Source: Fidelibacterota bacterium (GTDB lineage: Bacteria > Fidelibacterota > Marinisomatia > Marinisomatales > UBA2128). Taken from it: a stretch of 20,614 nucleotides of DNA. The notes below the pieces were generated by a model. It saw only the letters and a list, made by a program, of their open reading frames with translations, was not told where the DNA came from and made no database searches. This document shows, piece by piece, positions 2 to 20,401 of this stretch; the first letter of the stretch is position 1, and every line of letters starts with the position of its first letter. Location of the stretch: positions 1 through 20,614 of the forward strand of contig JBHHUM010000036.1 of NCBI GenBank assembly GCA_046861645.1. Direction: 5' to 3'. The position numbers were made by a program, and so were the translations under genes.

Positions 2-1189
2 CGCTTCAATCCCTACTTCGCCCAGGAACTTTATGCTTACCAGCCACTATATTCACCAGAACCTACGCAGAACTCAACTGACCACCGTCCTCTGGAAGGT
101 TTTATCTTTGCAGTCACCCCCTTCAATTTCCTGAGTATTGCTGGAAATCTTCCCACTGCTCCTATCCTCATGGGAAACGTAGCTTTATGGAAACCAGCCT
201 CCAGTGCGGTTTACCCTGCTTATTATCTAATGAAACTCTTCCAGGAAGCGGGGATACCCGATGGTGTAATCAACTTTATTCCCGGGCCAGGATCTAAGGT
301 AGGGCCAAACCTTATCCCCCATTCTGCTCTGGCAGGAATTCATTTCACCGGTTCAACAACTGTTTTCCATCGAATGTGGAAGACAGTCGGAGAGAATATT
401 TCATCTTACCAGAACTACCCTAGGATTGTCGGAGAAACAGGGGGAAAGGATTTCTGCATAGCCCATGAATCTGCAGATCTGGACGCCCTGGTCACAGCCC
501 TGATTCGAGGGGCATTTGAGTATCAGGGTCAAAAGTGCTCAGCGCTTTCCCGGGCTTACCTTCCCTCTACTATCTGGAGTGAAGTTAAGAGTCGTACCTT
601 AGCCCAGGTTGAGACAATCCAAATGGGTGGCGTGGAAGATTTCTCTAACTTTATGAATGCAGTTATTGACAAAGCTGCTTTCGATTCCATAGTAGAGTTT
701 ATTGAATATGCTAAAAATTCTTCGGATGCTGAAATCCTCGCAGGTGGAAACTATGATGATTCTACAGGATACTTTATTGAACCGACCATCATCCTTACGA
801 CTAATCCTCATTTCAAAACGATGGAGGAGGAAATTTTCGGTCCCGTGTTAACCATTTTCGTTTACGAACCCGAGCAATGGTTGGAGACATTAGAATTGGT
901 GAACAGTACCTCCATCTATGCCCTAACTGGGTGTATATTTTCACAGGACCAGAAAGCTTTGAAGGAAGCTAATGATGTCTTACGTCATGCTGCAGGAAAC
1001 TACTATATCAACGACAAACCCACCGGTGCAGTAGTGGGTCAACAACCTTTCGGAGGAGGACGAGCATCTGGAACTAACGACAAGGCAGGTTCCATGTGGA
1101 ATTTAGCTCGATGGGTTTCCCAGCGGACAATTAAGGAAAACTTTAATCCACCTAAAAGTTATCGCTATCCATTCATGGATGATGAATGA
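2..1189 (+). CDS. pruA: L-glutamate gamma-semialdehyde (1-pyrroline-5-carboxylate) dehydrogenase, ALDH4 family; 5'-truncated by the window edge
   Basis: The frame is open from position 2 (RFNPYFAQEL...HRPLEGFIFAVTPFNFLSIAGNLPTAPILMGN), upstream of the tracked ATG at 170. ALDH motifs: FTGS, GETGGK (catalytic Glu), FEYQGQKCSA (catalytic Cys), EEIFGPV, and the ALDH4-type GQQPFGGGRASGTNDKAGS. Confidence 0.95.
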   Translation, partial: RFNPYFAQELYAYQPLYSPEPTQNSTDHRPLEGFIFAVTPFNFLSIAGNLPTAPILMGNVALWKPASSAVYPAYYLMKLFQEAGIPDGVINFIPGPGSKVGPNLIPHSALAGIHFTGSTTVFHRMWKTVGENISSYQNYPRIVGETGGKDFCIAHESADLDALVTALIRGAFEYQGQKCSALSRAYLPSTIWSEVKSRTLAQVETIQMGGVEDFSNFMNAVIDKAAFDSIVEFIEYAKNSSDAEILAGGNYDDSTGYFIEPTIILTTNPHFKTMEEEIFGPVLTIFVYEPEQWLETLELVNSTSIYALTGCIFSQDQKALKEANDVLRHAAGNYYINDKPTGAVVGQQPFGGGRASGTNDKAGSMWNLARWVSQRTIKENFNPPKSYRYPFMDDE

Positions 1190-1265
1190 TCAAATTCCTC
1201 GCTAAAATTCTTTCCTATAAACAGACCTTCGGATTTAGCTAAAGTCACAAGACTGCTTATCAAGT

Positions 1266-1287
1266 TAAGGAATTAAATAATTCCTTA
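1266..1287. promoter_or_regulatory. Perfect inverted repeat TAAGGAATTA-AA-TAATTCCTTA, candidate operator
   Basis: 10-bp arms with a 2-nt spacer, ending 32 bp before the 1320 start. It lies just upstream of AT-rich -10-like hexamers (TATAAA 1293-1298, TAATAT 1299-1304) and an AGGAGA RBS at 1310-1315. Confidence 0.55.
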
Positions 1288-1319
1288 GAGTCTATAAATA
1301 ATATTACTTAGGAGAGAAA

Positions 1320-2642
1320 ATGAGAAAGAATAGAAAACGAATTTTAATTATGGGGGCTGCAGGCCGAGATTTTCACAACTTCAATACAGTTTACCGCAAT
1401 AATCCCAACTACCACGTTGTTGCTTTTACAGCTACACAAATTCCAAATATCGAGGATCGTAATTATCCGCCAGAATTGTCTGGCAAATATTATCCTAATG
1501 GGATACCCATTCACGATGAAAAAGATCTCACCCAGTTGATAGCTGAACTTGATGTAGAGGATGTCATCTTTGCTTATAGTGATATTTCCCACGAATACGT
1601 TATGCACAAAGCTTCAGAAGTCATTAAGTGTGGAGCCAACTTCGTGTTATTAGGTAGCGAACCCACTATGATAAAATCTACTAAGCCAGTAATAGCCATC
1701 GGAGCGGTTCGAACTGGTTGTGGTAAAAGCCAGACTACCAGACGTATAGCACAACTCCTGATTACTGCCGGAAAACAGGTTGTGGTGATTCGACACCCTA
1801 TGCCCTATGGGGTTTTAGGTAGACAGAAAGTGCAACGATTCGCTACAGTTGAGGATCTATCACTTCACAACTGCACTATTGAGGAAATGGAAGAGTATGA
1901 ACCCCACATCACCCGGGGGACTATCGTCTATGCAGGTGTGGATTATCAAGCTATCTTAGACGAGGCTGAAAAGGAAGCTGACATTATCTTATGGGATGGT
2001 GGAAATAACGATCTTCCTTTCTACAATCCTGATCTCTATATAGTCGTTATGGATCCGCATCGGGCTGGACATGAAATGGCATACTATCCCGGTGAGTCTA
2101 ACCTGCGCATGGGAGATGTAATTATTATTAATAAGATGGATACAGCTCATTCTGAAGACGTGGCTAAACTAAGGAAAAGTATTTCCATTGCTAACCCGGG
2201 CGCTACGGTCATCGAAGCTAACTCTCCTGTAACTATAGAAGATTCTTCAATTATTACAGGGAAGCGATGTTTGGTTGTCGAAGATGGACCTACCCTTACA
2301 CATGGTGAGATGAAGTTTGGAGCAGGAACAGTAGCTGCTGAAATGTTTGGCGCCACTGAAATCATCGACCCTCGCCCATGGATTGTGGGAACTATTGCAG
2401 AAACATTTGAGCACTATCCTAATATTGGCAAAGTACTCCCAGCTATGGGTTATGGTGGTCAACAGATTAAGGATCTGGAAACTACTATTAATTCTGTCGA
2501 GTGCGACGTAGTAGTAATTGGGACACCTATCGACCTGCGGCGGATTATCACCATTGAGAAACCCTCTGTCCGGGTTACCTACGAACTCCAAGAAATCGGT
2601 CATCCTACTCTTGATGAAATAATAGAACCCTTTACTAAATAG
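1320..2642 (+). CDS. COG2403-family P-loop NTPase (often annotated 'cyclic 2,3-diphosphoglycerate synthase'/GTPase); probable arginine synthetase (ArcE-like)
   Basis: N-terminal GAAGRDFHNFN, Walker A AVRTGCGKSQT, RHPMPYG, CTIEEMEEYEPH, WDGGNND, INKMD, VEDGPTLTHG and LPAMGY. AGGAGA RBS. Family assignment is confident; the specific activity is inferred. Confidence 0.8.
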   Translation: MRKNRKRILIMGAAGRDFHNFNTVYRNNPNYHVVAFTATQIPNIEDRNYPPELSGKYYPNGIPIHDEKDLTQLIAELDVEDVIFAYSDISHEYVMHKASEVIKCGANFVLLGSEPTMIKSTKPVIAIGAVRTGCGKSQTTRRIAQLLITAGKQVVVIRHPMPYGVLGRQKVQRFATVEDLSLHNCTIEEMEEYEPHITRGTIVYAGVDYQAILDEAEKEADIILWDGGNNDLPFYNPDLYIVVMDPHRAGHEMAYYPGESNLRMGDVIIINKMDTAHSEDVAKLRKSISIANPGATVIEANSPVTIEDSSIITGKRCLVVEDGPTLTHGEMKFGAGTVAAEMFGATEIIDPRPWIVGTIAETFEHYPNIGKVLPAMGYGGQQIKDLETTINSVECDVVVIGTPIDLRRIITIEKPSVRVTYELQEIGHPTLDEIIEPFTK

Positions 2643-2805
2643 AAGACCAATTAAAGACACTCTTCGTTGGACAAAGGGCTTGCTTCTGCTGCAGGTAGAC
2701 ACGAAATTGACACAACTTAATTGTTCAAGAACAAAGATGTTTCAAACATTATCCTCAAAAAGTTTCCACCGGCCTGGGTAAAATAATCCACGGAAAATAG
2801 TTGTT

Positions 2806-3975
2806 TTGAAGCTTCACGAATATCAGGCCAAGGAAATTCTTAGAAAACACAAGGTGCCTACCCCCAGAGGCCTCCCTGCCTTTACTGCTGATGAAGCTGT
2901 GGAGGTTGCGGAAAATCTGGGAGCTAAAACTATCGTTATCAAAGCACAAATCCACGCTGGTGGTCGTGGTAAAGGTGGTGGTATTAAGCTTGCTCACTCT
3001 ATACCAGAGGTTAGGAAATTAGCTGAACAGATGCTGGGGATGAGATTGGTTACACATCAAACTGATTCTGCAGGTAAGGAGGTCAAACGACTACTGATTG
3101 AAGAAGGCATCAATATTGCCACAGAGCTATATGCAGGTATAGTCCTTGATCGTTCAGCTGAACAATACGTGTTTATGGTTTCAACAGAAGGTGGAGTGGA
3201 AATTGAAAAAGTGGCGGCAGAAACACCGGAGAAGATTGTCAAGGCATGGATTGATCCAGAACTTGGTTTAACTCATCAACAAGCTCAACTTCTAGCCCAA
3301 TCACTCCATCTTTCTGGCAGAAGCGCTAACTTGGGAGTGGACACCTTATTAGCCCTCTGGAATGCTTTTATAAAAAATGATTGCTCACTGGCAGAGATTA
3401 ATCCGATGGTGATAACGGATTCAGGAAATATTATCGCTTTGGATGCCAAGATGAATTTTGACGATAATGCTCTCTTTCGCCACCCTGAGATTGTTGAAAT
3501 GAGGGACCTTTCCGAAGAATTGTCCAGTGAGATTGAAGCTTCCAAGTATAATCTTAATTACATCAAGTTAGATGGTAACGTGGGTTGTATGGTTAATGGT
3601 GCAGGACTGGCCATGTCCACTATGGATATTATCAAACTTGCCGGTGGTGAACCCGCCAATTTCCTCGATGTAGGTGGTGTGGCAAGTTCCGAAACCGTAG
3701 CTAAAGGTTTTCAAATAATATTGAGTGACCCAGCGGTAAAGTCAATTCTCATCAACATTTTCGGGGGTATAGTACGTTGCGATCGGGTAGCGCAAGGGGT
3801 CATTGACGCTCTCTCAGAAATAGTTGTAAAAGTTCCTGTGGTGGTACGATTGGAAGGCACCAATGCAGTTCAAGCAGCAGAACTACTTGAAAAATCATCC
3901 CTGGATTTTATTGTTGCATCCAGCTTGAGCGATGGCGCTGAAAAGAGTGTACAGGCTGCACAAGGTAATGCATGA
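2806..3975 (+). CDS. sucC: Succinyl-CoA synthetase beta subunit
   Basis: [72 protein letters not shown] start. Confidence 0.97.
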
Positions 3976-4859
3976 GCATTCTGATTAATAAAGAGACACG
4001 CCTGTTGGTTCAAGGAATCACTGGAAAGGAAGGTTCCTTCCATACTAGCCAGATGCTCGCTTATGGTACAACCATCGTGGCTGGAGTGACGCCAGGTAAA
4101 GGAGGACAAGAACATTTAGGTCTTCCGGTGTTCAATACCGTAAGTGAAGCTAAAGAAGCCAAGGAGTGCAACACTTCCATCATTTTTGTCCCCCCAAAGT
4201 TTGCTGCTGCCGCCATCATTGAAGCTGCTGACGAAGGATTGGATCTTATCATTTGCATCACGGAAGGAATTCCAACTGCTGACATGGTGAAGGTTAAGAA
4301 TCACCTTCGAAACACTGACACGAGGTTGATTGGTCCCAACTGTCCCGGGGTAATTACTCCCGGTCAGGCTAAAGTAGGCATCATGCCAGGTTTTATTCAC
4401 ACACCAGGATCAATTGGAGTAATCTCCCGCAGTGGAACTCTGACTTATGAAGCTGTTGATCAACTTACGAAGCAGAGCCTCGGTCAGTCGACCTGTATTG
4501 GTATTGGGGGAGATCCTATCATAGGTAGTACCTTTGTTGATCTGTTAACACTCTTCGCCGAGGATAATAGTACCGAAGGGATAGTTCTTATCGGAGAAAT
4601 AGGCGGTACAGCTGAAGAAGAAACCGCCCAATGGGTAATCGACAACAATTTTGAAAAACCTATTGTAGCTTTCATAGCTGGTCAGACAGCGCCACCAGGC
4701 CGGAGAATGGGACATGCCGGTGCTATCATTGCTGGAGGTAAAGGTACAGCAGCAGAGAAAATGAACTCTCTTGCTGAAGCCGGTATTACTGTGATAAAGA
4801 GCCCAGCAGAAATTGGTAAAACCATGAAAAGAGTTGTTAAGGAAAGGGGAATTATTTGA
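3972..4859 (+). CDS. sucD: Succinyl-CoA synthetase alpha subunit
   Basis: [38 protein letters not shown] and the phospho-His motif MGHAGA. ATGA overlap with sucC. Confidence 0.97.
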
Positions 4860-5278
4860 ATAATAGAACACTGGCTATAATTAAACCTGACGCCATAGGA
4901 AAACGGTTAACTGGGAAGATCATTGATCATATCCTCCGCTCAGGTTTTGAGATTGTTGCTATGAAAAAAATCCGTATGTCCGTCGAAGAAGCACAACGAT
5001 TTTATGAAATACACAGGGAGCGTCCCTTTTTTCATGATTTGGTTAAGTTCATGAGTTCTGGACCATGTGTAGTAGCTACTCTACAGAAAGAAAATGCCGT
5101 TGAAGCCTGGAGAGAAACTATTGGTACTACAAATCCAGCTGAAGCAGCCCAAGGTACCATCAGAAAATTATATGCAGATAACGTACAAAATAACGTTGTT
5201 CATGGATCTGATTCGGATGAAAATGCAGCAAAAGAGATTGCATTTTTCTTTTCTGACGACGAAATTCTCTCACTCTAA
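4856..5278 (+). CDS. ndk: Nucleoside diphosphate kinase
   Basis: [25 protein letters not shown] and catalytic [11 protein letters not shown] start overlapping the sucD stop (TTGA). Confidence 0.97.
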
Positions 5279-6192
5279 TGAATGACTGGGGATTTAAAGT
5301 CTATGCGAAAAGAATAAGTAGGGTTCTGGCCTTCCTGGTTTGCCTAATAATCTTTTCTTCTTGTAGTCGGGACATTACTCATGAAGGAAAAGTTAACCAC
5401 TATTATTCCATCCTGGTACAGCCACCTTACAAGGTCATGGCACCTTCTTATGATTGGATTATCCATGAATTCCCTGAAAATAGTCAACTCTCGTTTTCCG
5501 ACCTGCTCATATCTTCCAGTGGTAATGAGCTGACTTTCCTGCCCGATGTCACTGGTGATTATATATTCGAGGTAGTTGTATTCGATGGTAATAAACAAGC
5601 AGGAAGTAAAAAATACGTCTTCAATATTTCCTCACCTGAAATTGTTGAAAGCCCTGTGCCTGAAATTCCCGACCTAGAGGTTATCGAGCCAGAATCGATC
5701 GAAATAACTGAGCAACCTAAGGAAGATCTCGTCGATACTTTAGAAATATTATCTGCAAACAGTGAACAATTCGAGCCTGAAGCAATAACAACAGAAATTG
5801 AATCTGTTCCCGAGGAAACTACCCTGACTGAAATACCGTCAGCAGATGAAAATGCAGAAACAGTTATCGAACCACTTATAGAACCAATAACATCAGTTGA
5901 AACTAAACTTGAAAAGGAGACTCCCTCTACTCTGACAAGAGGTCAACATTACACTATTCAGATTTCAGCCTGGCCTATTCTTGAAAAAGCGGAAGCTGTC
6001 GTTGACACACTTGAAGACTTGGGATTCGATACCTATATTCAGAAAGGTTATTTAGACAATAATGATGCTATTTGGTACCGTGTACGAGTAGGTACTTTTT
6101 CTACAATGACTGAAGCAAAAAATGCTTCCAACGCAATACAATCAATAACCAAATACGATACGTGGATTGACCGCGTACGTGAGGATCTATAA
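5278..6192 (+). CDS. Putative lipoprotein: PKD/Ig-like N-domain, acidic Pro/Glu-rich linker, C-terminal SPOR peptidoglycan-binding domain
   Basis: Basic then hydrophobic signal ending FSS-C29 (lipobox-like). W...P..S....F.PD..G.Y.F.V.V.DG pattern. Low-complexity acidic middle. C-terminal YTIQISAW...A...L...GF...WYRVRVGTF...EA is typical of SPOR. TAATG coupling to ndk. Confidence 0.8.
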   Translation: MNDWGFKVYAKRISRVLAFLVCLIIFSSCSRDITHEGKVNHYYSILVQPPYKVMAPSYDWIIHEFPENSQLSFSDLLISSSGNELTFLPDVTGDYIFEVVVFDGNKQAGSKKYVFNISSPEIVESPVPEIPDLEVIEPESIEITEQPKEDLVDTLEILSANSEQFEPEAITTEIESVPEETTLTEIPSADENAETVIEPLIEPITSVETKLEKETPSTLTRGQHYTIQISAWPILEKAEAVVDTLEDLGFDTYIQKGYLDNNDAIWYRVRVGTFSTMTEAKNASNAIQSITKYDTWIDRVREDL

Positions 6193-6212
6193 GCAAGATC
6201 AAGGAGGGAAAC

Positions 6213-7460
6213 ATGGGACCTGTGAATCTTTACTTTGATGTCCGAGATATTTTCCGAGCACCACGACTGGCGCTGAGTGGAAAGAAAATCTGGACAATGA
6301 TGGAGGCTACTTTTGTCGGTTTCATCATATACGGATTTTTCTCCTATATTGCACTAATGGCACAAGGAGAATCTTTCGGAGAAATTTGGGATACGTTTGG
6401 GATTTTACCACATCCTGTAGCTATAGGTGTATTCTTTTCAGGTATTCAAGAGGTAAGCTGGGGAGCAATGATCCTTTCACTAATAGGCATCCTCGGTGGA
6501 CTGATGTGCTTGGTACTCGGAGCTACAGCTGTAGTTCGTATTACTTACAAACAACTGAAGGGAGATGAATTTTACTCCTCAAGTGATGCCTGGCGGTTTG
6601 TTAAGAAACACTGGCACGCTCCAGTTTTTTCACATATTTCCATTCTTATCATTGCCGCATTTTTTGTAATTATGGCCATCATTTTTGCTCTAATTGGCAA
6701 AATACCTTACTTGGGTGAGTTATTTTTTGGAATTCCGTATCTCCTCTGGTTTGCTGGTTCGGTTTTCGTAGTATATACCCTAGTTGTTTTTGCCATCTCT
6801 ATTTTCTTCACTCACGCCATCGTAGGAACCATGGAAGAAGATACAATGGGTACAGTATTCCAAAACTATTCCATCACCTGGTCACAAGCCTGGCGTATTG
6901 CACTTTACCTACCTTTAATTTATTCCCTGGTAGCCATGGGTATAGTGGTCTTTTACTTTTTTATGACTGAAGGTTACAATCTAATAAACTATGTCTTTGG
7001 TCAGGATTGGTTAATGGGAGACAAGTTAGCTCGCATGGTCGGTTGGGTGATTGGTGATACCTTTATGTCTGTTCCTGCGAACCTTATTGGTTGGGAAGCT
7101 CCCGACTTTTTTATCCTCGAACCTGAAGGAGCTCTTGAATACATTGGGGGAGCATTTATAGCTGTATCACTTTTCATCATCTTTTGGTCAATCATTTCTT
7201 ACGCTTTTTGTATCGAGGTAGCCGGACAGACCCTGGCTTTAGTGATTTTCAAAAAACGCTCCGATGATGATAATCTCCTGGAAAGGAAGGACGAGGAGGA
7301 ATTAGAAGCAGAGGAAAAGGAAGAGGAATGGTCCTCAGATTTAGAAGAGGATACCGAAGAGAAGGAAACTGAAGAGGAAAAAGAAACTGGGGACGAGACA
7401 TCTTCTGAGGATGAAGAGAGTAGTACCGATTCTCGAGAAGATGATAATACAGAAGACTGA
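6213..7460 (+). CDS. Uncharacterised multi-pass membrane protein with a very acidic C-terminal tail
   Basis: Strong AAGGAGG RBS, 415-aa ORF, about 6-8 hydrophobic segments. The last 65 aa contain 37 Asp/Glu by manual count. Confidence 0.85.
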   Translation: MGPVNLYFDVRDIFRAPRLALSGKKIWTMMEATFVGFIIYGFFSYIALMAQGESFGEIWDTFGILPHPVAIGVFFSGIQEVSWGAMILSLIGILGGLMCLVLGATAVVRITYKQLKGDEFYSSSDAWRFVKKHWHAPVFSHISILIIAAFFVIMAIIFALIGKIPYLGELFFGIPYLLWFAGSVFVVYTLVVFAISIFFTHAIVGTMEEDTMGTVFQNYSITWSQAWRIALYLPLIYSLVAMGIVVFYFFMTEGYNLINYVFGQDWLMGDKLARMVGWVIGDTFMSVPANLIGWEAPDFFILEPEGALEYIGGAFIAVSLFIIFWSIISYAFCIEVAGQTLALVIFKKRSDDDNLLERKDEEELEAEEKEEEWSSDLEEDTEEKETEEEKETGDETSSEDEESSTDSREDDNTED

Positions 7461-7484
7461 TCTCAAAACTTAATAAACCTGGGT

Positions 7485-7510
7485 GAGGGGGCATTTTGCC
7501 CCCTCTTTTT
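7485..7510 (+). terminator. Rho-independent terminator
   Basis: GAGGGGGCA-TTT-TGCCCCCTC stem-loop followed by TTTTT, 24 bp after the stop at 7460. Confidence 0.85.
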
Positions 7511-7536
7511 ACTCTACAAAGTATCTTAGGGATTGC

Positions 7537-7565
7537 TTGTACGGGCGAAACAAAACGATTAATTT
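7537..7565 (+). promoter_or_regulatory. Putative sigma70 promoter for the yceD-rpmF-plsX-fab operon
   Basis: TTGTAC (7537-7542), 17 nt, TAATTT (7560-7565), lying between the terminator and the ATG at 7576. Confidence 0.45.
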
Positions 7566-7575
7566 CAGCACCGTT

Positions 7576-8088
7576 ATGAAGCTCAGAACTTCTGATTTAG
7601 TATCTTTGGGTCCAACAGCTGTTGTGAACGTAAGTACCCGGGACATTACAACTGAAGATGAAATTGCAGTTGATTCTGTTCCGATTCAACTTTCTGTCAG
7701 TCCAATTGGTAACGACCTGAGAGTACAGGGTAAACTTTCTGCCCCAGTCAGAAAAACTTGTGATCGATGTTTAATTCAATTTGAAGAAGATATCGAAACT
7801 GATTTTGAGGTGTTAGTGGTCTCTTATCAATCACCCTTAGTTGAGACAACAGAGACAGAAGTTCTAGAGTTGAGTCCGGGGCAACTGGAGGTAGATCTAG
7901 GACCTTACATCAGGGATGCCATAGTAGTGGGTCAAAGCATGAAAAATCTTTGTCGTGAAGACTGTAAAGGTTTGTGTCCACAATGTGGTAAAAATCTGAA
8001 CCAGGAAGATTGTTCTTGTTCAGAGAAGACTACTGATGAACGGTGGGCACCTTTGAAAGAAATCAACTTTTCAACAGTGGAGCATTAG
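7576..8088 (+). CDS. yceD: YceD/DUF177 family protein (large ribosomal subunit accumulation)
   Basis: CDRCL and LCREDCKGLCPQCGKNLN...C.C...DERWAPL motifs, directly upstream of rpmF. Start moved to ATG 7576 because the tracked 7483 start lies in the terminator region. Confidence 0.92.
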   Translation: MKLRTSDLVSLGPTAVVNVSTRDITTEDEIAVDSVPIQLSVSPIGNDLRVQGKLSAPVRKTCDRCLIQFEEDIETDFEVLVVSYQSPLVETTETEVLELSPGQLEVDLGPYIRDAIVVGQSMKNLCREDCKGLCPQCGKNLNQEDCSCSEKTTDERWAPLKEINFSTVEH

Positions 8089-8089
8089 A

Positions 8090-8269
8090 ATGGCATTACC
8101 AAAACGTAAACAATCAAAAGCAAAGGGGCGTAAACGGCGCACCCATTGGAAGGCAAAAGCACCTCAGTTGACAAATTGTCCCCAATGTCACCAGGCCAAA
8201 TTGCCGCACCGAGCCTGTCCTAATTGCGGCTACTATCGGGGTCGGCCTGTTATTTCCTCATCTGAATAA
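8090..8269 (+). CDS. rpmF: 50S ribosomal protein L32 (Zn-ribbon type); not in the ORF track
   Basis: Manual translation: MALPKRKQSKAKGRKRRTHWKAKAPQLTNCPQCHQAKLPHRACPNCGYYRGRPVISSSE (59 aa, two CxxC). Canonical position between yceD and plsX. Confidence 0.97.
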   Translation: MALPKRKQSKAKGRKRRTHWKAKAPQLTNCPQCHQAKLPHRACPNCGYYRGRPVISSSE

Positions 8270-8283
8270 TAACTCTTACTCGC

Positions 8284-9294
8284 ATGATAATCGCCGTTGA
8301 CGGAATGGGTGGAGACCATGCTCCTCCCGTAATCGTACGGGGAGCTGTCCAAGCTATCAAGGAAAGTCAAGATGATCTGCAGATCATCCTCACTGGGCAA
8401 TACCAACAAATCGAGAGAGAACTGGAAAAACTTGACTGGGATAGCGACAAGATTATGATACACTCTGCTCCTCAAGTAGTGAACCATTCCATAAGACCCT
8501 CTCAGGTTGTAAAACAGCTCCCTGATTCATCCATAGTACAGGGAATCAAGTTGATAAAAGAAAAAGAGGCTGATGCCTTCGTGAGTGCTGGCCATACTGG
8601 TGCAATTCTCTCTACGGCACTTCTTCTTTTAGGACGAATTGAAGGGGTTAGAAGACCAGCCATCTCAGTATATTTACCTGTCCGTACCCGGGGCCTGGTG
8701 CTTTGCGACGTAGGAGCCAATACTGAGGTTAAACCTCGCCATCTTCTTCAATTCGCTATAATGGCTTCAGAATACATTAAGCATATGCACGGGGTAAAAG
8801 TACCAACCATAGGATTACTTAATATCGGGGCAGAAGCCAATAAAGGTCGTGATGAATACGTGGAAGCTCATGCCCTTCTTTCTGAAATGTTACCTAATTT
8901 TGCAGGTAATATTGAAGCCAGATACATCTACGATGGCAAGGTTGATGTATTGGTCTGTGATGGTTTTGTTGGAAACAACCTGCTCAAATTTGCAGAGGGA
9001 TGGATTCATCATATTCATCGGGAAATCTCAAAACAACTTTCAGTAAACAACAGCAATAAAAAATCTGCTCTAAACAAAATATTTGATGATATCATTCGGG
9101 AATATGAATACGAAGAATCAGGTGGTAGCTTTCTTCTTGGTGTAAACGGTGTCTGCATGATTTGCCACGGAGCATCTCCGGTTCGAGCCATAAAAAACGC
9201 TATTCTATCAACTGCCCAGAGCGTCAAAGAACAACTGGTCGAGTCCATACGCGAAGGCATCTCCCAAACTGTAGCCCAAATAGAGAAAACATAA
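8284..9294 (+). CDS. plsX: Phosphate acyltransferase PlsX
   Basis: IAVDGMGGDHAP, SAGHTGA, GVRRPA, DVGAN, LLNIGAEANKG, VCDGFVGN, LLGVNG..ICHG. Confidence 0.96.
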   Translation: MIIAVDGMGGDHAPPVIVRGAVQAIKESQDDLQIILTGQYQQIERELEKLDWDSDKIMIHSAPQVVNHSIRPSQVVKQLPDSSIVQGIKLIKEKEADAFVSAGHTGAILSTALLLLGRIEGVRRPAISVYLPVRTRGLVLCDVGANTEVKPRHLLQFAIMASEYIKHMHGVKVPTIGLLNIGAEANKGRDEYVEAHALLSEMLPNFAGNIEARYIYDGKVDVLVCDGFVGNNLLKFAEGWIHHIHREISKQLSVNNSNKKSALNKIFDDIIREYEYEESGGSFLLGVNGVCMICHGASPVRAIKNAILSTAQSVKEQLVESIREGISQTVAQIEKT

Positions 9295-10295
9295 TGTCAG
9301 AACAAATAAAAGCTGCCATAACTGCCACTTCAAAATATCTTCCAGAAAAAGTGGTTACTAACCATGATCTTGAGAAAATCATCGATACCAATGACGAATG
9401 GATCGTATCACGTACAGGGATTTCCGAACGTCGTATTGTAGAAGATGGCCAGGTTACCTCTCATATGAGCATACAGGTGGCCGAGGAACTCTTACAGAAG
9501 AGAGGTATTTCAGCTCAAGAAATAGATGTAATTATCATCGGCACAGTAACCCCAGACATGCTCTTTCCTTCTACTGCAGCTCTTGTTCAAGATGCCATTG
9601 GGGCATCGAAAGCCTGGGGGTTCGACCTTTCTGGCGCTTGCTCTGGCTTCCTCTATGCCCTGGAAAGCGGTTCCAATATGATTGCATCAGGAAAGTACCA
9701 AAAGATTATCGTCATTGGCGCTGACACAATGAGTTCCATAATTGATTATCAGGATAGAGCTACTTATGTCTTATTTGGGGATGGTGCTGGAGGTGTACTC
9801 TTGGAACCTTCTCAGGATGAAAGTGGAATTATCGACTCCTCCCTCTTCACCGATGGCAGTGGCGGAAAACATCTCAATATGCCTGGTGGTGGAAGCTTAC
9901 ATCCAGCCACAGAAGAAACCGTAAAACAAAGAATGCACTTTATCAAGCAGAATGGCAAAAAAGTTTTCAAGTTTGCCGTTAAAGGTATGGCAGATGTCTC
10001 TGTTGAGATTCTGAAAAAGCACGGTTTAACCGGCAAAGATGTCAAATTATTTATCCCTCATCAGGCAAACAAACGTATCATTGATGCTAGTGTAGAGCGC
10101 CTGGGTTTATCATCGGAACAAGTCCTGATAAATATCGACAGGTACGCCAATACAACTGGAGCTACTATTCCCATTGGACTGGCAGAAGCGGTAGATGAAG
10201 GACGTATTTCAGCTGGAGATTACATCCTGCTGGCTGCCTTTGGAGCAGGATTCACCTGGGGAAGTACTCTTATCCGGTGGGGAAATACACATTGA
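9294..10295 (+). CDS. fabH: Beta-ketoacyl-ACP synthase III
   Basis: True start MSEQIK at ATG 9294 (TAATG overlap with plsX). DTNDEWIVSRTGISERR, ACSGF (Cys), FGDGAG, PHQAN (His), YANT (Asn), FGAGFTWG. Confidence 0.96.
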   Translation: MSEQIKAAITATSKYLPEKVVTNHDLEKIIDTNDEWIVSRTGISERRIVEDGQVTSHMSIQVAEELLQKRGISAQEIDVIIIGTVTPDMLFPSTAALVQDAIGASKAWGFDLSGACSGFLYALESGSNMIASGKYQKIIVIGADTMSSIIDYQDRATYVLFGDGAGGVLLEPSQDESGIIDSSLFTDGSGGKHLNMPGGGSLHPATEETVKQRMHFIKQNGKKVFKFAVKGMADVSVEILKKHGLTGKDVKLFIPHQANKRIIDASVERLGLSSEQVLINIDRYANTTGATIPIGLAEAVDEGRISAGDYILLAAFGAGFTWGSTLIRWGNTH

Positions 10296-11218
10296 GCAAC
10301 TTAGCTTTCCTTTTTCCCGGCCAGGGATCCCAAAAAGTGGGGATGGGATTAGATTTATATACCGATTCCCTAACAGGTAAGAGACGTTTCGAGCAGGCTA
10401 ATGATATCCTGGAGATGAATCTATCATCACTGATTTTTAATGGACCTGAAAGCCAGCTTAGACAGACTAAATACACTCAACCAGCTCTATATGTTGTCAG
10501 TTTTATTCTTGGTGAGCTGTTACGGGAAGAAGGTGTACTCCCTTCCCTCTCTGCTGGTCACAGTCTCGGGGAATATTCAGCTTTAGCTGTAGCCGGGGCC
10601 TTATCCTTTACCGAGGGACTAAACCTGGTAAAAATCCGCAGCGAGAGTATGATGGCAGCAGGTAAAACACGACCAGGGAGTATGGCTGCTATTATTGGTC
10701 TCAACCAGGAAACAGTAGAAAAAATTTGTAACGTGGCAAGAAAAAATGGCATTGTTCAGCCAGCTAATTTTAATTCTCCCAATCAAATTGTAATTTCCGG
10801 AGAAGTCAAAGGTATTAATCAGGCTGTTATGTTAGCTGAAGAGGCGGGGGCACGTAGAGTAATAAAGCTCAATGTTAGTGGAGCTTTTCACTCATCACTC
10901 ATGAAACCAGCTAAAGAAAAATTGCTGACTGCACTTCAGAAACATATCATCAGTGAACCAGATTATCCTGTTGTGATGAATGTTACGGCACAACCCACTC
11001 TAGACCCAGTAGAGATTCGTAATAATCTTATCGACCAATTGGACCACCCTGTATTGTGGACGGCAACAGTTGAAACCTTGCGAGACGCTGGGATAATGGC
11101 CATGGTTGAGGTAGGACCAGGACGAGTATTACAAGGCTTGGTCAGACAGATTGATAGATCCATGGAAACTCGAGGTATCTCGACAATCTCCGAAATCAAG
11201 GAGAGAGTTCATGTCTGA
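10292..11218 (+). CDS. fabD: Malonyl-CoA:ACP transacylase
   Basis: FLFPGQGSQ, TQPA, GHSLGEY (catalytic Ser), ANFNSPNQIVISG, VSGAFHS, EVGPG. Likely TTG start at 10292 overlapping the fabH TGA. Confidence 0.96.
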   Translation: MSNLAFLFPGQGSQKVGMGLDLYTDSLTGKRRFEQANDILEMNLSSLIFNGPESQLRQTKYTQPALYVVSFILGELLREEGVLPSLSAGHSLGEYSALAVAGALSFTEGLNLVKIRSESMMAAGKTRPGSMAAIIGLNQETVEKICNVARKNGIVQPANFNSPNQIVISGEVKGINQAVMLAEEAGARRVIKLNVSGAFHSSLMKPAKEKLLTALQKHIISEPDYPVVMNVTAQPTLDPVEIRNNLIDQLDHPVLWTATVETLRDAGIMAMVEVGPGRVLQGLVRQIDRSMETRGISTISEIKERVHV

Positions 11219-11954
11219 GTGGGATGGAAAAGTCGCTTTCATTACCGGGGCCTCTAAAGGGATAGGGCGAGCAATTGCAGAAATTTTTGCAGCAAAAGGG
11301 ATAACAGTAATTTGTGCCAGCCGAACCGTTGCCGATCTGGAAACCTTAGTGAAAAATATTGAGGAAAATGGGGGGAAGGCTTCCCTTATACGCCTCGATG
11401 TATCTAATACAAAAGATTTCCAGGAAGCAGTAAAGGAGGTTGCCGACAACTTCGGAAGTATTGATATACTGATAAACAATGCCGGTATAACCAGAGATAA
11501 GCTTATTTTAAGAATGTCCGTAGAAGATTGGGATACGGTTCAAGCGGTGAACCTGAAGGGCTGTTTCAATGGTATCAAAGCTGTTACTCCATTCATGATG
11601 AGAGCTCGTTTTGGCAGGATAATTAATATCACCTCTGTTGTTGGGATTACCGGTAATGCAGGTCAATCAAACTATGCCGCATCAAAGGCGGGAATCATAG
11701 GTTTGACTAAATCCGCAGCCAAGGAATTAGCCAGTAGAAATATATGTGTAAATGCAATTGCACCCGGTTATATTGAAACCGAAATGACGGCAAAACTTAC
11801 CGAATCTGTAAGGGAAAAACTATTGAAGCAAATTCCCATTGGAAAAATTGGCCAACCGGAAGATGTAGCTCAGGTAGCACTCTTCCTGGCCTCCGATAAA
11901 GCCGGTTATATTACTGGCGAGGTGATTTCAGTTAATGGTGGATTACATACATAA
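11211..11954 (+). CDS. fabG: 3-oxoacyl-ACP reductase
   Basis: ATG 11211 after AAGGAG. TGASKGIG, NNAGITRD, GNAGQSNYAASKAG, VNAIAPGYI. Confidence 0.96.
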   Translation: MSEWDGKVAFITGASKGIGRAIAEIFAAKGITVICASRTVADLETLVKNIEENGGKASLIRLDVSNTKDFQEAVKEVADNFGSIDILINNAGITRDKLILRMSVEDWDTVQAVNLKGCFNGIKAVTPFMMRARFGRIINITSVVGITGNAGQSNYAASKAGIIGLTKSAAKELASRNICVNAIAPGYIETEMTAKLTESVREKLLKQIPIGKIGQPEDVAQVALFLASDKAGYITGEVISVNGGLHT

Positions 11955-12203
<249 letters not shown>

Positions 12204-12205
12204 TT

Positions 12206-13450
12206 TTGAGTCGCCGTGTAGTCATAACCGGCATGGGAGTAGTCTCTCCTGTCGGAGCCGATTTGAGAACATTCTGGGATAATCTGACCTCAGGACGAAG
12301 TGGTATCAGGTCCGTTACCAAATTTGATACTTCTGATTTCCCTGTAAAAATTGGAGGTGAAGTTTCTTCTGATTTTAAACCTGAAGACTACCTTGAGAAA
12401 AAGGAACTCAACAGACTTGATGATTTCTCAATTTATGCTTTGATCGCTGCAGAGCAAGCCCTTCAACAAGCAGGTCTAACCAATGGAATCTCCGATATGG
12501 ACCGGTTCGGGGTTGTTGTAGGATCTGGTGTGGGGGGTCTGCTTACCATGGAGGAACAGAATAAACGTCTCCTGAAGCGGGGTCCGCGGGGTGTGTCACC
12601 CCTATTCATTCCCATGTATATTCTCGATATCGCTGCCGGACATATCTCCATGAAGTGGGGATTGAAAGGACCTAACTATGCGGTTGTTTCTGCATGTGCA
12701 ACAGGATCCACAGCGATTGGAGATGCATTTCGGCATATCCAATACGGTGATGCAGAAATCATCATTGCTGGAGGAGCAGAAGCCTGCATCACACCTATAG
12801 CTTTTGCAGGATTTGCAAACATGAGAGCTCTTTCCCGTCGTAACGACGAACCTGAGAGAGCATCACGACCATTTGATGCTGATCGTGATGGATTCGTTAT
12901 GGGTGAAGGGGCTGGTCTGGTTATTCTGGAAGAGCTTGAGCACGCCCGAAATCGAGGAGTTGAAATTATTGCTGAGCTTATCGGATATGGTGCTACTGCT
13001 GACGCCTTTCATATTACCGCTCCAGCCCCCGGCGGGGAAGGCGCGATTCGCGCCATGAGCAGAGCCATTAAAGATGGCGGACTTGACCCTGAAGACGTGG
13101 ACTATATCAATGCCCATGGAACCTCAACTCCGTTTAATGACAGGAATGAGACTCAAGCCATAAAAACTTTGTTCAATAAACATGCCTATGAATTGAATGT
13201 CAGCTCAACTAAGTCCATGACAGGACATCTGTTAGGGGCTGCCGGAGGAATTGAAGCAATTGCAGCGATAATGGCAATCAAGGAGAATAAAATTCCTCCT
13301 ACTATCAACTACGAAAAACCTGACCCAGATTGTGACCTGAACTATACACCTAACGTTGCTGAAAATAGATCAGTACGAGTGACTATGTCGAACACCTTTG
13401 GTTTCGGTGGTCACAACGCCGTGCTATTGTTCAGGGAGTGGATGAGCTAA
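12206..13450 (+). CDS. fabF: Beta-ketoacyl-ACP synthase II
   Basis: RRVVITGMG, SACATG (Cys), SRPFDADRDGFVMGEG, NAHGTST, KSMTGHLLGAAG, SNTFGFGGHN. TTG start. Confidence 0.97.
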   Translation: MSRRVVITGMGVVSPVGADLRTFWDNLTSGRSGIRSVTKFDTSDFPVKIGGEVSSDFKPEDYLEKKELNRLDDFSIYALIAAEQALQQAGLTNGISDMDRFGVVVGSGVGGLLTMEEQNKRLLKRGPRGVSPLFIPMYILDIAAGHISMKWGLKGPNYAVVSACATGSTAIGDAFRHIQYGDAEIIIAGGAEACITPIAFAGFANMRALSRRNDEPERASRPFDADRDGFVMGEGAGLVILEELEHARNRGVEIIAELIGYGATADAFHITAPAPGGEGAIRAMSRAIKDGGLDPEDVDYINAHGTSTPFNDRNETQAIKTLFNKHAYELNVSSTKSMTGHLLGAAGGIEAIAAIMAIKENKIPPTINYEKPDPDCDLNYTPNVAENRSVRVTMSNTFGFGGHNAVLLFREWMS

Positions 13451-13454
13451 TCTT

Positions 13455-14171
13455 TTGCAATTAATCCGTCAGTTTCTTTCCCGTATCTCCTCAAATCATA
13501 CCGAACTTAATGAACTCCAGAGAGAGTTAAATTACTTTTTCAGAAAACGGGAATATTTGGTGCAAGCTGTTACCCACAAATCAATCAGTTCTGAACCCAG
13601 AAAAAATTATGAACGGCTGGAATTCCTGGGTGATGCCATCATAGATCATATTATCTCGAAAAAACTCATTAAGGAATTCCCATTTGGTGACGAAGGTTTA
13701 CTCACACAGAAAAGATCAGCCCTGGTGCAAAAAAGCTTCCTGGCCAAAACGGGAGAAAGACTAAATTTACTGAAATACCTTGCCGTCAGAGGGTCCGTTG
13801 ATCTTACTCAAAAAAAAGTGTCTGAAAACCAGTTAGCTAACGTTTTTGAATCTATTATTGGTGCTATCTATCTTGATGGAGGGATCTCACCTTGTAAAAA
13901 AATAATTGATCGCACGTTATGGCAATATCGGTCTAAAGCATGGGAGTCAGTCAATTACAAAGGACGTTTGATTGAGAAGTGTCATTCCCATCAGCTCAAA
14001 CCACCCAGGTTCGTGGTAGAATCCACCCGTGGACCTGAGCATCGAAAAACATTTCAGGTGGCAGTCATCATTGGAAGCAAACGCTACTCGCCCGGAATTG
14101 CAGACAATAAAAAAACCGCTGAACAGGAAGCGGCTCGGTTAGCATTAGAGTCTTTGGCTTATACCGATTAA
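13455..14171 (+). CDS. rnc: Ribonuclease III
   Basis: THKS, the signature YERLEFLGDA, EGLLTQKRS, FESIIGAIYLD, and a C-terminal dsRBD (NYKGRLIE...GPEH...F...KKTAEQEAA). TTG start. Confidence 0.95.
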   Translation: MQLIRQFLSRISSNHTELNELQRELNYFFRKREYLVQAVTHKSISSEPRKNYERLEFLGDAIIDHIISKKLIKEFPFGDEGLLTQKRSALVQKSFLAKTGERLNLLKYLAVRGSVDLTQKKVSENQLANVFESIIGAIYLDGGISPCKKIIDRTLWQYRSKAWESVNYKGRLIEKCHSHQLKPPRFVVESTRGPEHRKTFQVAVIIGSKRYSPGIADNKKTAEQEAARLALESLAYTD

Positions 14172-14732
14172 CTATCCTTTTTTCTCCAGTTCCATAATTT
14201 TATCCCGAAGAATGGCAGCCTGTTCATATTCCTCCTCATCAATTGCTTTCTGAAGTTTCTCCTGCAGTATTTTATGAGTAAGACCACGAGGACGAGATCG
14301 GGAATCAAAATTCTGCTCCTCTTCCACATCTTCTTCAAGACCGGCCGCGTCCATGACGCTCTCAGCCACAAAAATCGGAGCATCCAAACGCAGGGCAACT
14401 GCTATGGCATCGCTGGGTCTTGAGTCTACCGTTCTCTCACCTGTACTTTTGGAGTTTATTTTCATCTCTGCAAAAAAAGTCCCATCAGACAGATCAGTAA
14501 TGGATACGGCAGATAATCCCGCATTTGTCTCTATCAGGATGCTACATACCAGATCATGTGTCATGGGACGGGGAGTATCAACATTTTCCAGGGCCAGAGC
14601 GATGGATTGAGCTTCAAAAGAGCCCACAATTACGGGTAATCTTCGATTTGCTCCGCCAATTTCCTGGAGAACAACCGCATATCCCTTACTGGGGGGATAA
14701 AATGATATGCGTGTAACTTCTACGGGTATCAT
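14172..14732 (-). CDS. Bifunctional nuclease family protein (DUF151) with a C-terminal UVR coiled coil
   Basis: LPVIVGSFEAQSIA, RPMTHDL, GTFFA, DSRPSDAIAVALR. Tail LQEKLQKAIDEEEYEQAAILRDKI matches a UVR motif. ATG at 14732 preferred over TTG at 14738. Confidence 0.92.
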   Translation of the reverse strand: MIPVEVTRISFYPPSKGYAVVLQEIGGANRRLPVIVGSFEAQSIALALENVDTPRPMTHDLVCSILIETNAGLSAVSITDLSDGTFFAEMKINSKSTGERTVDSRPSDAIAVALRLDAPIFVAESVMDAAGLEEDVEEEQNFDSRSRPRGLTHKILQEKLQKAIDEEEYEQAAILRDKIMELEKKG

Positions 14733-14757
14733 AATCAACAGGTAGGTTTCCTATTCA

Positions 14758-14786
14758 AATTTATATTCTCGACCAACATATTGCAA
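14758..14786 (-). promoter_or_regulatory. Putative sigma70 promoter for the DUF151 gene
   Basis: Minus strand TTGCAA (14786-14781), 17 nt, TAAATT (14763-14758), in the intergenic gap upstream of the DUF151 start. Confidence 0.45.
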
Positions 14787-14814
14787 CCCCTAAACTCGCA
14801 CTCAGTGAGTTCCA

Positions 14815-15867: not shown

Positions 15868-15868
15868 T

Positions 15869-18206: not shown

Positions 18207-18218
18207 TTTATTTCCTTG

Positions 18219-20250: not shown

Positions 20251-20401
20251 GGCAGTGGATAAAGTTACGGAAGAGAGACTAAGGAGGGAAATAGATTGGA
20301 TCGACCTAAATTCTAAAAAAATTGACCTGACAAAAACCAGCCTGGCCATCCTTCAATGTACTTTGCAAAATCCAGAAAAATTAATTGATGCTTTCATGGT
20401 A

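What the first reader, a model, noticed from the sequence alone, without database searches (positions are those of the whole stretch)
2..5278. Possible ATP-conserving arginine catabolic module: P5C dehydrogenase, ArcE-like NTPase, sucCD and ndk
Seen: a COG2403 NTPase lies directly after a P5C dehydrogenase and before succinyl-CoA synthetase and NDK, all on one strand. Knowledge (recalled, should be verified): a COG2403 member from Thermococcus kodakarensis (ArcE) is an arginine synthetase, Arg + ADP + Pi <-> citrulline + NH3 + ATP, and P5C dehydrogenase is the last step of ornithine/proline breakdown to glutamate. Inference: this bacterium may degrade Arg via citrulline, ornithine and P5C to Glu with substrate-level phosphorylation, and SucCD/Ndk may add or interconvert NTPs downstream. 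The link to sucCD-ndk may be adjacency only, since a 163-bp gap with its own motifs separates them.
Basis: partly seen in the sequence, partly recalled or inferred. Interest (0 to 1): 0.7.

Follow-up and report, generated by a model that had tools for sequence, protein, structure and literature searches.

The report
Arginine synthetase operon with leader peptide
This marine bacterium carries the recently discovered enzyme that makes ATP while breaking down arginine, inside a gene cluster conserved across its phylum, and just in front of it lies an overlooked 18-amino-acid gene that may act as an arginine-responsive switch.

Summary
The five genes are as described. The 1320-2642 protein is an ArcE (arginine synthetase) orthologue: 65% identical over 438 ungapped residues to the Thermococcus gene matching both TK2200 primers, against 24-28% (partial) to cDPGS. 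In this Marinimicrobia order the usual layout is P5CDH-arcE-arcC(carbamate kinase)-sucC-sucD-ndk (P5CDH 43, arcC 33, sucC 45 of 49 loci). Four arcE-less relatives carry an arginine deiminase in exactly the arcE slot. This genome lost the in-cluster arcC; it has OTC and another carbamate kinase elsewhere, and no deiminase, arginase or ArgG was found. So ATP-yielding Arg-to-ornithine catabolism is well supported. Two steps are weaker: no ornithine aminotransferase or cyclodeaminase was found here, and sucCD-ndk has its own promoter-like site. It precedes arcE in 47 genomes of the order and 8 in other classes, is under purifying selection and travels with arcE, not P5CDH. It is a candidate TnaC/SpeFL-like arrest peptide, untested. 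The scan noted this ORF before in another Marinimicrobia genome (e1-5254729). Verdict: known enzyme, new operon variant with a plausible new regulator.

The parts
2..1189 (+). 3' part of L-glutamate gamma-semialdehyde (P5C) dehydrogenase, TIGR01236 type; 5' part on contig C104
   Evidence: E 1e-177, just under cut-off because truncated; C104 covers residues 3-151, this contig 152-546 of the G003 orthologue
1186..1242 (+). 18-codon ORF MIKFLAKILSYKQTFGFS, start overlapping the P5CDH stop (ATGA); candidate leader/arrest peptide of arcE
1243..1319 (+). 77-nt spacer with an A/T-rich hairpin (about 1266-1287) and a GGAG ribosome-binding site before arcE
   Evidence: sequence; fold. Not C-rich in this genome (8 C, 8 G), unlike most relatives
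1320..2642 (+). arcE, arginine synthetase (ATP-forming arginine deiminase) orthologue, 440 aa, P-loop GCGKS at residues 133-137
   Evidence: 65% over 438 aa, no gaps; 148 of 150 ArcE-invariant columns kept
2643..2805 (+). 163-bp gap where relatives carry arcC (carbamate kinase); holds a promoter-like TTGCTT-17 nt-GAAATT site at 2680-2708 shared with G003
2806..3975 (+). sucC, ADP-forming succinate-CoA ligase beta subunit
3972..4859 (+). sucD, succinate-CoA ligase alpha subunit
4856..5278 (+). ndk, nucleoside diphosphate kinase; a second promoter-like site lies in its 3' end
5278..6192 (+). SPOR-domain protein, conserved member of the same gene string
6213..7460 (+). 415-aa hypothetical protein with several hydrophobic stretches, conserved member of the string
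   Evidence: (no family)
7485..7505 (+). intrinsic-terminator-like hairpin, likely end of the unit before yceD-rpmF-plsX-fab genes
   Evidence: 9 pairs, 7 G-C, T tail; consensus match only

Best explanation
The locus is the Marinimicrobia form of the arginine synthetase pathway. ArcE converts arginine + ADP + Pi to citrulline + NH3 + ATP (inferred from orthology; not assayed). OTC on contig C46 gives ornithine and carbamoyl phosphate. A carbamate kinase gives a second ATP: in most relatives it is the gene right after arcE, here that copy is lost and a kinase in a purine-catabolism-type cluster (C160) is the only one found. The ancestral unit P5CDH-leader-arcE-arcC-sucC-sucD-ndk groups this with the P5C-to-glutamate step and with the succinyl-CoA step of glutamate oxidation (glutamate dehydrogenase and 2-oxoacid oxidoreductases are elsewhere in the genome). 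The 18-codon ORF is a real, selected peptide tied to arcE; the likeliest job is a nascent-chain sensor that stalls at its stop codon when arginine or a product is high and so lets transcription continue into arcE. Shown by sequence: orthology, gene order, deiminase swap, arcC loss, peptide conservation. Inferred: catalysis, catabolic direction, flux from ornithine to P5C (enzyme not identified here), and the peptide's mechanism.
For: 65% identity over 438 aa without gaps to L048, whose gene matches both published TK2200 primers with 0 mismatches; cDPGS paralogues 24-28% over 75-250 aa. Tree: one clade with the Thermococcus rows, SH-aLRT 100, about 10 changes per site from 8 cDPGS rows (quick tree). 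148 of 150 columns invariant in 9 other ArcE rows are kept. Carbamate kinase directly follows arcE in 33 of 49 same-order loci (one a remnant), 13 of 20 and 14 of 20 loci of other orders/classes. Full-length deiminase matches (E about 1e-61) occur in 4 of 41 genomes, all arcE-negative, and in all 4 the gene sits between P5CDH and arcC. Two P5CDH subfamilies fill the upstream slot: TIGR01236 here, TIGR01237 in the 3 distant loci scanned. No ArgG, no ArgB/ProB-type kinase found in G000, which argues against biosynthesis. sORF: 32 of 49 loci; a pattern for codons 11-19 hit 33 of 401 phylum genomes against 2 control hits, and all 15 hits in genomes not seen before that came with loci had an ATG exactly 18 codons before the stop and arcE next; pS 1.0 against pN 0.21 in codons 11-18; 9 of 40 loci of other orders/classes carry a 16-21-codon ORF ending G-F/Y-x-stop against 0.18 expected, 8 of them convincing; Rho is present; C exceeds G in the 40 nt after the stop in 29 of 37 against 52 of 105 control gaps.
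Against: No activity or expression data. No RocD-like gene in G000 or its genus; only 14 of 41 genomes have one, its slot before pcd-lat is empty here, and no cyclodeaminase was found. The candidates left are a lysine 6-transaminase and two other class III transaminases; a fungal LAT accepts ornithine (PMC9854754, passage), but M. tuberculosis, which has LAT, is described as a natural rocD mutant needing another gene for growth on arginine (PMC12910592, passages). P5CDH-arcC-sucC-sucD-ndk persists in 4 genomes with neither arcE nor deiminase, and arcE-arcC sits next to ndk without P5CDH or sucCD in other classes, so part of the order is positional. sucC has its own promoter-like site here. The sORF is absent from 17 of 49 same-order loci at the score threshold (one of these is N-masked) and from 30 of 30 Thermococcus loci; the C-rich spacer is modest, kin are not independent, and this genome's own spacer is not C-rich.
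Confidence: 0.75

Rival explanations
1. ArcE works as described, but in this genome arginine is taken only to ornithine (2 ATP, carbamoyl phosphate) and ornithine is exported or used otherwise. P5CDH serves proline oxidation with ProDH, and sucCD-ndk is a housekeeping neighbour with its own promoter, so there is no single Arg-to-Glu-to-succinate module here.
For: No RocD or cyclodeaminase found; ProDH present; promoter-like site before sucC, of a motif class seen in 41 of 710 upstream regions against 2.9 in shuffles; the string persists without arcE.
Against: P5CDH stays directly upstream of arcE or the deiminase in 43 of 49 same-order loci and 21 of 40 other loci, through a subfamily replacement; ProC is present without ProB, which hints at an ornithine-derived source of P5C; three class III transaminases remain unassigned; the genome is 94.5% complete.
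Confidence: 0.4
2. The 18-residue product is a trans-acting small protein that binds ArcE (or P5CDH or the membrane) and tunes or assembles it, rather than a cis-acting arrest peptide.
For: Amphipathic N-terminal half and fixed length of 18-19 residues; translational coupling to P5CDH through an ATGA overlap in many genomes; found only with arcE, never with the deiminase that replaces it (0 of 10 arcE-negative loci); no conserved RNA structure.
Against: Always immediately upstream of arcE, also when P5CDH is displaced or absent, and no second copy in G000; the invariant F-G-F lies exactly one residue before the stop, like termination-arrest peptides (SpeFL effector Phe residues, 10.1101/604074, passages); ArcE is active alone in T. 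kodakarensis (PMC11032458).
Confidence: 0.35
3. ArcE runs mainly in the biosynthetic direction (citrulline + NH3 + ATP to arginine), replacing ArgG/ArgH, or mainly supplies carbamoyl phosphate for pyrimidines.
For: ArgG not found in G000 and in only 9 of 41 genomes; CPS and OTC present; both roles are discussed in PMC11032458 and PMC13260591; 6 of 29 arcE-positive genomes showed no CPS match.
Against: No acetylglutamate or glutamate kinase found, so no route to ornithine from glutamate; the usual partner is carbamate kinase and the in-place substitute is an irreversible deiminase; this genome has CPS, so it does not need ArcE for carbamoyl phosphate.
Confidence: 0.1
4. The protein is a cyclic 2,3-diphosphoglycerate synthetase or a generic GTPase, as public annotations say.
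For: Only PDB sequence match is a cDPGS (E 3e-5); best fold matches are cDPGS and LpxK; public names read 'GTPase'.
Against: No ArcE structure is in the PDB copy; true cDPGS rows are 24-28% identical over partial lengths and form a separate clade; the ArcE paper reports the same distant cDPGS and LpxK (4EHY) likeness for TK2200.
Confidence: 0.03

Closest known systems
Arginine synthetase ArcE (TK2200) and the ArcE-ArcB-ArcC pathway of Thermococcus kodakarensis (PMC11032458, PMC13260591)
   Same: 65% identical, colinear protein; OTC and carbamate kinase in the genome; no deiminase; mutual exclusion with deiminase; frequent arcE-arcC clustering.
   Different: Bacterial and untested; clustered with P5C dehydrogenase and sucCD-ndk; OTC unlinked; CPS present; preceded by a conserved 18-codon ORF that Thermococcus loci lack (0 of 30).
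Arginine deiminase pathway (arcA-arcB-arcC)
   Same: Same overall route; an ArcA-like gene occupies the same slot in G018, G025, G032 and G037.
   Different: Hydrolytic, one ATP per arginine; unrelated fold; no 18-codon ORF found before these deiminases.
Termination-arrest leader peptides SpeFL (ornithine), TnaC (tryptophan), PepNL/NanCL (10.1101/604074, PMC11890864)
   Same: Short ORF just upstream of an amino-acid catabolic gene; invariant aromatic residues next to the stop codon; any stop codon tolerated; Rho present and a C-over-G bias downstream in most relatives.
   Different: No sequence likeness was tested or seen beyond the Phe-rich end; 18-19 residues against 34 (SpeFL) and 14 (PepNL); often sits inside an operon coupled to the upstream gene; no conserved pause hairpin; stalling untested.
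Cyclic 2,3-diphosphoglycerate synthetase (cDPGS/CpgS; PDB 8ORU, 9SXB)
   Same: Distant homologue with the same P-loop core.
   Different: 24-28% identity over partial lengths; separate clade; lacks the N-terminal GAAGRDFHNFN segment of ArcE.

Membership tests
ArcE arginine synthetase | Full-length high similarity to TK2200 (the paper's set used BLASTP E < 1e-100) | tested here: met
   65% over 438 aa, 614 bits, to L048, which matches both TK2200 primers exactly
ArcE arginine synthetase | Groups with ArcE to the exclusion of cDPGS in a tree | tested here: met
   40-row clade, SH-aLRT 100, quick IQ-TREE search without bootstrap; outgroup identity checked for 1 of 8 rows
ArcE arginine synthetase | P-loop NTPase core resembling LpxK (4EHY) | tested here: met
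   model pLDDT 87; Foldseek ranks cDPGS first and 4EHY third
ArcE arginine synthetase | Co-occurs with OTC and carbamate kinase, complementary to arginine deiminase | tested here: met
ArcE arginine synthetase | Catalyses Arg + ADP + Pi = citrulline + NH3 + ATP | not testable with these tools
   needs an assay; catalytic residues are not defined in the sections read, so only overall conservation (148 of 150 columns) could be checked
cDPGS/CpgS | Full-length orthology to solved cDPGS enzymes | tested here: not met
   E 3e-5 over 150 aa against E 4e-190 for a true Thermococcus cDPGS
Complete Arg-to-Glu route (ArcE-OTC-OAT-P5CDH) | An ornithine aminotransferase or cyclodeaminase in the genome | tested here: inconclusive
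   no RocD over cut-off and no cyclodeaminase; three other class III transaminases of unproven range; genome 94.5% complete
Sensory ribosome arrest peptides (TnaC/SpeFL type) | Short ORF directly upstream of the regulated gene, conserved at amino-acid level near the stop codon | tested here: met
Sensory ribosome arrest peptides (TnaC/SpeFL type) | Rho and a rut-like or attenuator element downstream | tested here: inconclusive
   Rho present; C > G in 29 of 37 against 52 of 105 controls but not in this genome; no consensus RNA structure; no Rfam match
Sensory ribosome arrest peptides (TnaC/SpeFL type) | Ligand-dependent ribosome stalling that changes downstream expression | not testable with these tools
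   needs toeprinting and reporters
Classical codon-sensing attenuator leaders | Run of codons for the controlling amino acid plus a terminator hairpin | tested here: not met
   at most one semi-conserved Arg (20 of 33 at position 12); no terminator-like site between the ORF and arcE

The most novel reading that the evidence does not exclude
The 18-codon ORF is a new class of bacterial metabolite-sensing arrest peptide that detects arginine (or citrulline/ornithine) inside the ribosome tunnel, stalls at its stop codon through the F-G-F end and switches on an ATP-conserving arginine operon in mid-transcript, across a whole uncultured marine phylum; the operon channels arginine carbon through P5C and glutamate to succinyl-CoA with three substrate-level phosphorylation steps.
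Probability: 0.35. Interest if true: 0.8.

Novelty: new variant of a known kind. Interest (0 to 1): 0.55.

Why it matters
ArcE has been characterised only in one archaeon in the papers found. Here it is in 197 of 401 Marinimicrobia-phylum genomes searched, annotated as 'GTPase', and natural in-place swaps with arginine deiminase give a direct genomic test that bacterial ArcE does the same job with one more ATP. That changes the energy budget drawn for these abundant marine heterotrophs. The leader ORF gives a small, cheap, testable candidate for how bacterial arcE is regulated; few small-molecule-sensing arrest peptides are known in bacteria (own knowledge: TnaC, SpeFL and antibiotic sensors), and the search listed no bacterial arginine-sensing one by title or abstract opening.

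Tried and rejected
Exact forward TK2200 primer in genome contigs: 0 matches; a degenerate pattern gave 7 loci and led to the Thermococcus reference. RNA runs: no RNA holder listed, so no reads were laid; this is no evidence either way. Rfam: nothing above chance in 900-8300. tRNA/tmRNA: none. arcC remnant in the 163-bp gap: best blastx E 0.63, not significant. rocD lost at a contig edge: rejected, since another gene and about 400 bp of non-coding DNA precede pcd on C183. Generic sigma-70 scan: 20 sites against 15 expected, uninformative; a genome-derived motif was used instead. Two pattern hits outside the order, G182 and G201, are chance. Recalled-motif regex screen for GDH, OGDH, ArgC/J/H, ProA, SDH missed genes later found by profile (GDH), so its blanks are not used. 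The careful tree did not finish; the quick tree is reported. In one search, 10 of 80 metagenome loci and 1 of 40 genome loci were dropped by my ORF filter; the genome locus was recovered. Large NAD-GDH: 0 of 4 genus genomes. Atlas search of the 415-aa neighbour gave only unnamed clusters. Peptide-ArcE binding was not modelled because the complex tool needs chains of 30 residues or more. Look-ups of earlier findings by sequence, place and further words were empty.
Full report
Setting. The window is the whole of contig C155 of a 2.51-Mb genome, 94.5% complete. The closest named relatives of the 1320-2642 protein are from Candidatus Marinimicrobia and are annotated 'GTPase'.

Observation. P5CDH is cut by the contig edge; residues 3-151 of the G003 orthologue match contig C104 and 152-546 match this contig. 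sucC, sucD and ndk pass curated cut-offs. The 440-aa protein has only a weak CobW hit and no NCBIfam family; 'COG2403' is recalled, not tested.

What the 440-aa protein is. I read parts 1-4 of 6 of PMC11032458 and searched its supplement: TK2200/ArcE catalyses Arg + ADP + Pi = citrulline + NH3 + ATP, resembles LpxK 4EHY, and is distantly related to cDPGS. To get a real reference I found a Thermococcus locus, searched 62 genomes of that genus (60 with a match) and picked the gene matching both published primers without mismatch (L048; L050 also does; 30 loci checked). The window protein is 65% identical to it over 438 residues without gaps. Eight weak Thermococcus paralogues are 24-28% identical over 75-250 residues; the one checked is cDPGS (E 4e-190 to 9SXB). 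A 48-row quick tree puts the window protein inside the ArcE clade, support 100. It keeps 148 of 150 columns invariant in nine other ArcE rows; only 35 of those are shared with both cDPGS rows. The model (pLDDT 87) matches cDPGS and LpxK best, as reported for TK2200. It is an ArcE by every test that sequence allows.

Gene order. ArcE matches were found in 30 of 41 related genomes at E 0.001, one of them a weak CobW hit, and in 197 of 401 phylum genomes at E 1e-40. Among 49 same-order loci, 43 have P5CDH within 1 kb upstream, 33 have carbamate kinase directly downstream (one only a remnant), and 45 have sucC and ndk after that. In two sets of 20 loci from other orders and classes, P5CDH is upstream in 12 and 9 and carbamate kinase downstream in 13 and 14. 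In three distant loci scanned the upstream enzyme is the other P5CDH subfamily, TIGR01237, so the function rather than the gene has been kept beside arcE. Outside Marinimicrobia-like contigs, metagenome loci show arcE with OTC or carbamate kinase but rarely this string (70 of 80 loci readable).

A natural swap. Full-length deiminase matches occur in 4 of 41 genomes (G018, G025, G032, G037), all arcE-negative. In all four a 427-aa gene sits between P5CDH and arcC. The two scanned match arcA models at E 1e-70 to 1e-73, below the curated cut-offs; the three inspected keep the recalled deiminase motifs FTRD, EGGD, HLD and GGPRC. Four further genomes have P5CDH-arcC-sucC with neither gene.

The rest of the pathway in this genome. 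OTC is on C46. The only carbamate kinase is on C160, 41% identical to the in-cluster type, beside an unusual transcarbamylase; in relatives this block lies among ygfK, ssnA and xanthine dehydrogenase genes. Of the eight arcE-positive genomes in the first set that lack the in-cluster arcC, seven have a carbamate kinase elsewhere and G006 shows none (G024 is cut by a contig end). Not found: deiminase, arginase/agmatinase, ArgG, ornithine cyclodeaminase. The three amino-acid-kinase-family genes are aspartate kinase, UMP kinase and carbamate kinase, so no ArgB or ProB. Found: ProDH, ProC, CPS, a GDH fragment at a contig edge, two 2-oxoacid oxidoreductases. The weak link is ornithine to P5C: RocD-like genes (E below 1e-108) are in 14 of 41 genomes, none in this genus. 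In G022 the gene lies before pcd-lat; that slot is empty here and in 13 of the 14 pcd-lat loci fetched. A lysine 6-transaminase could stand in; passages of PMC9854754 report ornithine use by a fungal LAT only 26% identical to bacterial ones, and passages of PMC12910592 speak against it in M. tuberculosis. Parts 1, 3 and 4 of 6 of PMC13260591 show ArcE supplying carbamoyl phosphate in CPS-less archaea; this genome has CPS, so that role is not needed.

sucCD-ndk. In arcC-bearing relatives arcE, arcC and sucC mostly abut, so they were one unit. Here the gap holds TTGCTT-17-GAAATT, with both hexamers and the spacing kept in G003. This motif class occurs in 41 of 710 upstream regions against 2.9 in shuffles and 6 of 1785 coding stretches; I chose the pattern after seeing the site, so it is suggestive only. 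The first terminator-like hairpin in a gap is at 7485-7505.

The overlooked ORF. An earlier scan note (e1-5254729) mentioned an 18-codon gene before arcE in another Marinimicrobia genome; I tested this independently. Here it is 1186-1242, MIKFLAKILSYKQTFGFS, overlapping the P5CDH stop. It is in 22 of the first 29 arcE loci, one with an internal stop, and in 0 of 10 arcE-negative loci; 32 of 49 in the larger tally. A DNA pattern for codons 11-19 hit 33 of 401 genomes, control 2. For the 15 hits in new genomes with loci, the features not in the pattern held every time: ATG exactly 18 codons before the stop and arcE 55-75 nt on. That makes 47 genomes of the order. Across 33 distinct sequences F15 and G16 never change, synonymous sites in codons 11-18 are saturated (pS 1.0, pN 0.21), and all three stops occur; 15 of these were selected by the pattern, which inflates conservation, but the first 22 show the same. 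Diverged 18-19-codon versions ending W-x-x-W/H-F-G-F-C/K occur in 8 of 40 loci from other orders and classes, plus one doubtful hit, against 0.18 expected, and 10 of 74 metagenome loci against 0.22; none in 30 Thermococcus loci. It stays with arcE when a gene is inserted after P5CDH (G019, G031), when P5CDH is absent (G136, G243, G239) and in a different context after citrate synthase (L215). There is no second copy in G000, no consensus RNA structure and no Rfam match.

Mechanism of the ORF. Passages of the SpeFL preprint (10.1101/604074) describe C-terminal Phe residues that block release at the stop codon and mask a rut site; passages of PMC11890864 describe 14-residue peptides that stall at their stop. 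The fixed F-G-F-x-stop end, strict cis position, Rho and a C-over-G bias downstream (29 of 37 against 52 of 105; absent in this genome) fit that model. I put it at about 55%, a trans-acting small protein at 35%; that the ligand is arginine or a product is a further inference from the downstream gene.

Literature. Searches (listings only) showed no paper on Marinimicrobia arcE, this cluster or this ORF. 'Marinimicrobia' does not occur in the text of the ArcE supplement, but its trees and some tables are pictures that could not be read, and most subscription journals are not in the library.

Verdict. Observation confirmed; interpretation partly supported. The enzyme is a new bacterial member of a known family; the operon layout, the in-place deiminase swap and the leader ORF make it a new variant. 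The scan has met ArcE clusters several times, and this ORF once, on other DNA. Interest 0.55.

Noticed in passing
G000:C160 (L038, L040); L144-L149: Cluster with two unusual transcarbamylases, carbamate kinase, a threonine-synthase-like and another PLP enzyme among ygfK, ssnA and xanthine dehydrogenase genes; looks like an anaerobic purine-catabolism block. Its presence tracks loss of the in-cluster arcC.
   Followed up: partly
L215:4883-5836: Metagenome locus where leader ORF and arcE follow enolase and citrate synthase and an arginase-like gene (TIGR01229 220.5 bits, cut-off 227.6) follows arcE.
   Followed up: partly
L138, L140, L142, L143, L139, L141: Genomes that keep arcC, four of them between P5CDH and sucC, with neither arcE nor a full deiminase found; source of carbamoyl phosphate for the kinase is unclear.
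   Followed up: no
window 6213-7460 and 5278-6192: A 415-aa hypothetical membrane-like protein and a SPOR-domain protein follow ndk in nearly all relatives; no family found, Atlas look-alikes are unnamed clusters including Planctomycetota.
   Followed up: partly
L080, L086, L087 (between P5CDH and arcE): Independent-looking insertions of a 147-158-aa gene resembling four-helix-bundle (bAvd/23S IVP-like, label recalled) proteins at the same spot in G005, G031 and G033; G019 holds a partial copy.
   Followed up: no
L153:1411-2739 and related loci: RocD-like transaminase with an extra N-terminal segment sits directly before pcd-lat in some relatives, linking ornithine and lysine catabolism.
   Followed up: partly
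G004, G019, G033, G039, G270, G296, G254: arcE-sucC gap: In several other arcC-less relatives the short gap holds a G+C-rich hairpin, some with a T tail, instead of a promoter-like site.
   Followed up: no
window 7483-14171 and 14172-20349: Ordinary strings: yceD-rpmF-plsX-fabH-fabD-fabG-(acp)-fabF-rnc on +; murQ, anmK, phosphomannomutase, polyprenyl synthase, PGI/PMI and a 188-aa gene on -. The listed yceD start overlaps the terminator-like hairpin, so the true start is probably later.
   Followed up: partly
G013 (L096:9701-9757): Leader ORF with GTG start and an in-frame stop at codon 13 in a 99% complete genome; recent decay or a sequence error.
   Followed up: no
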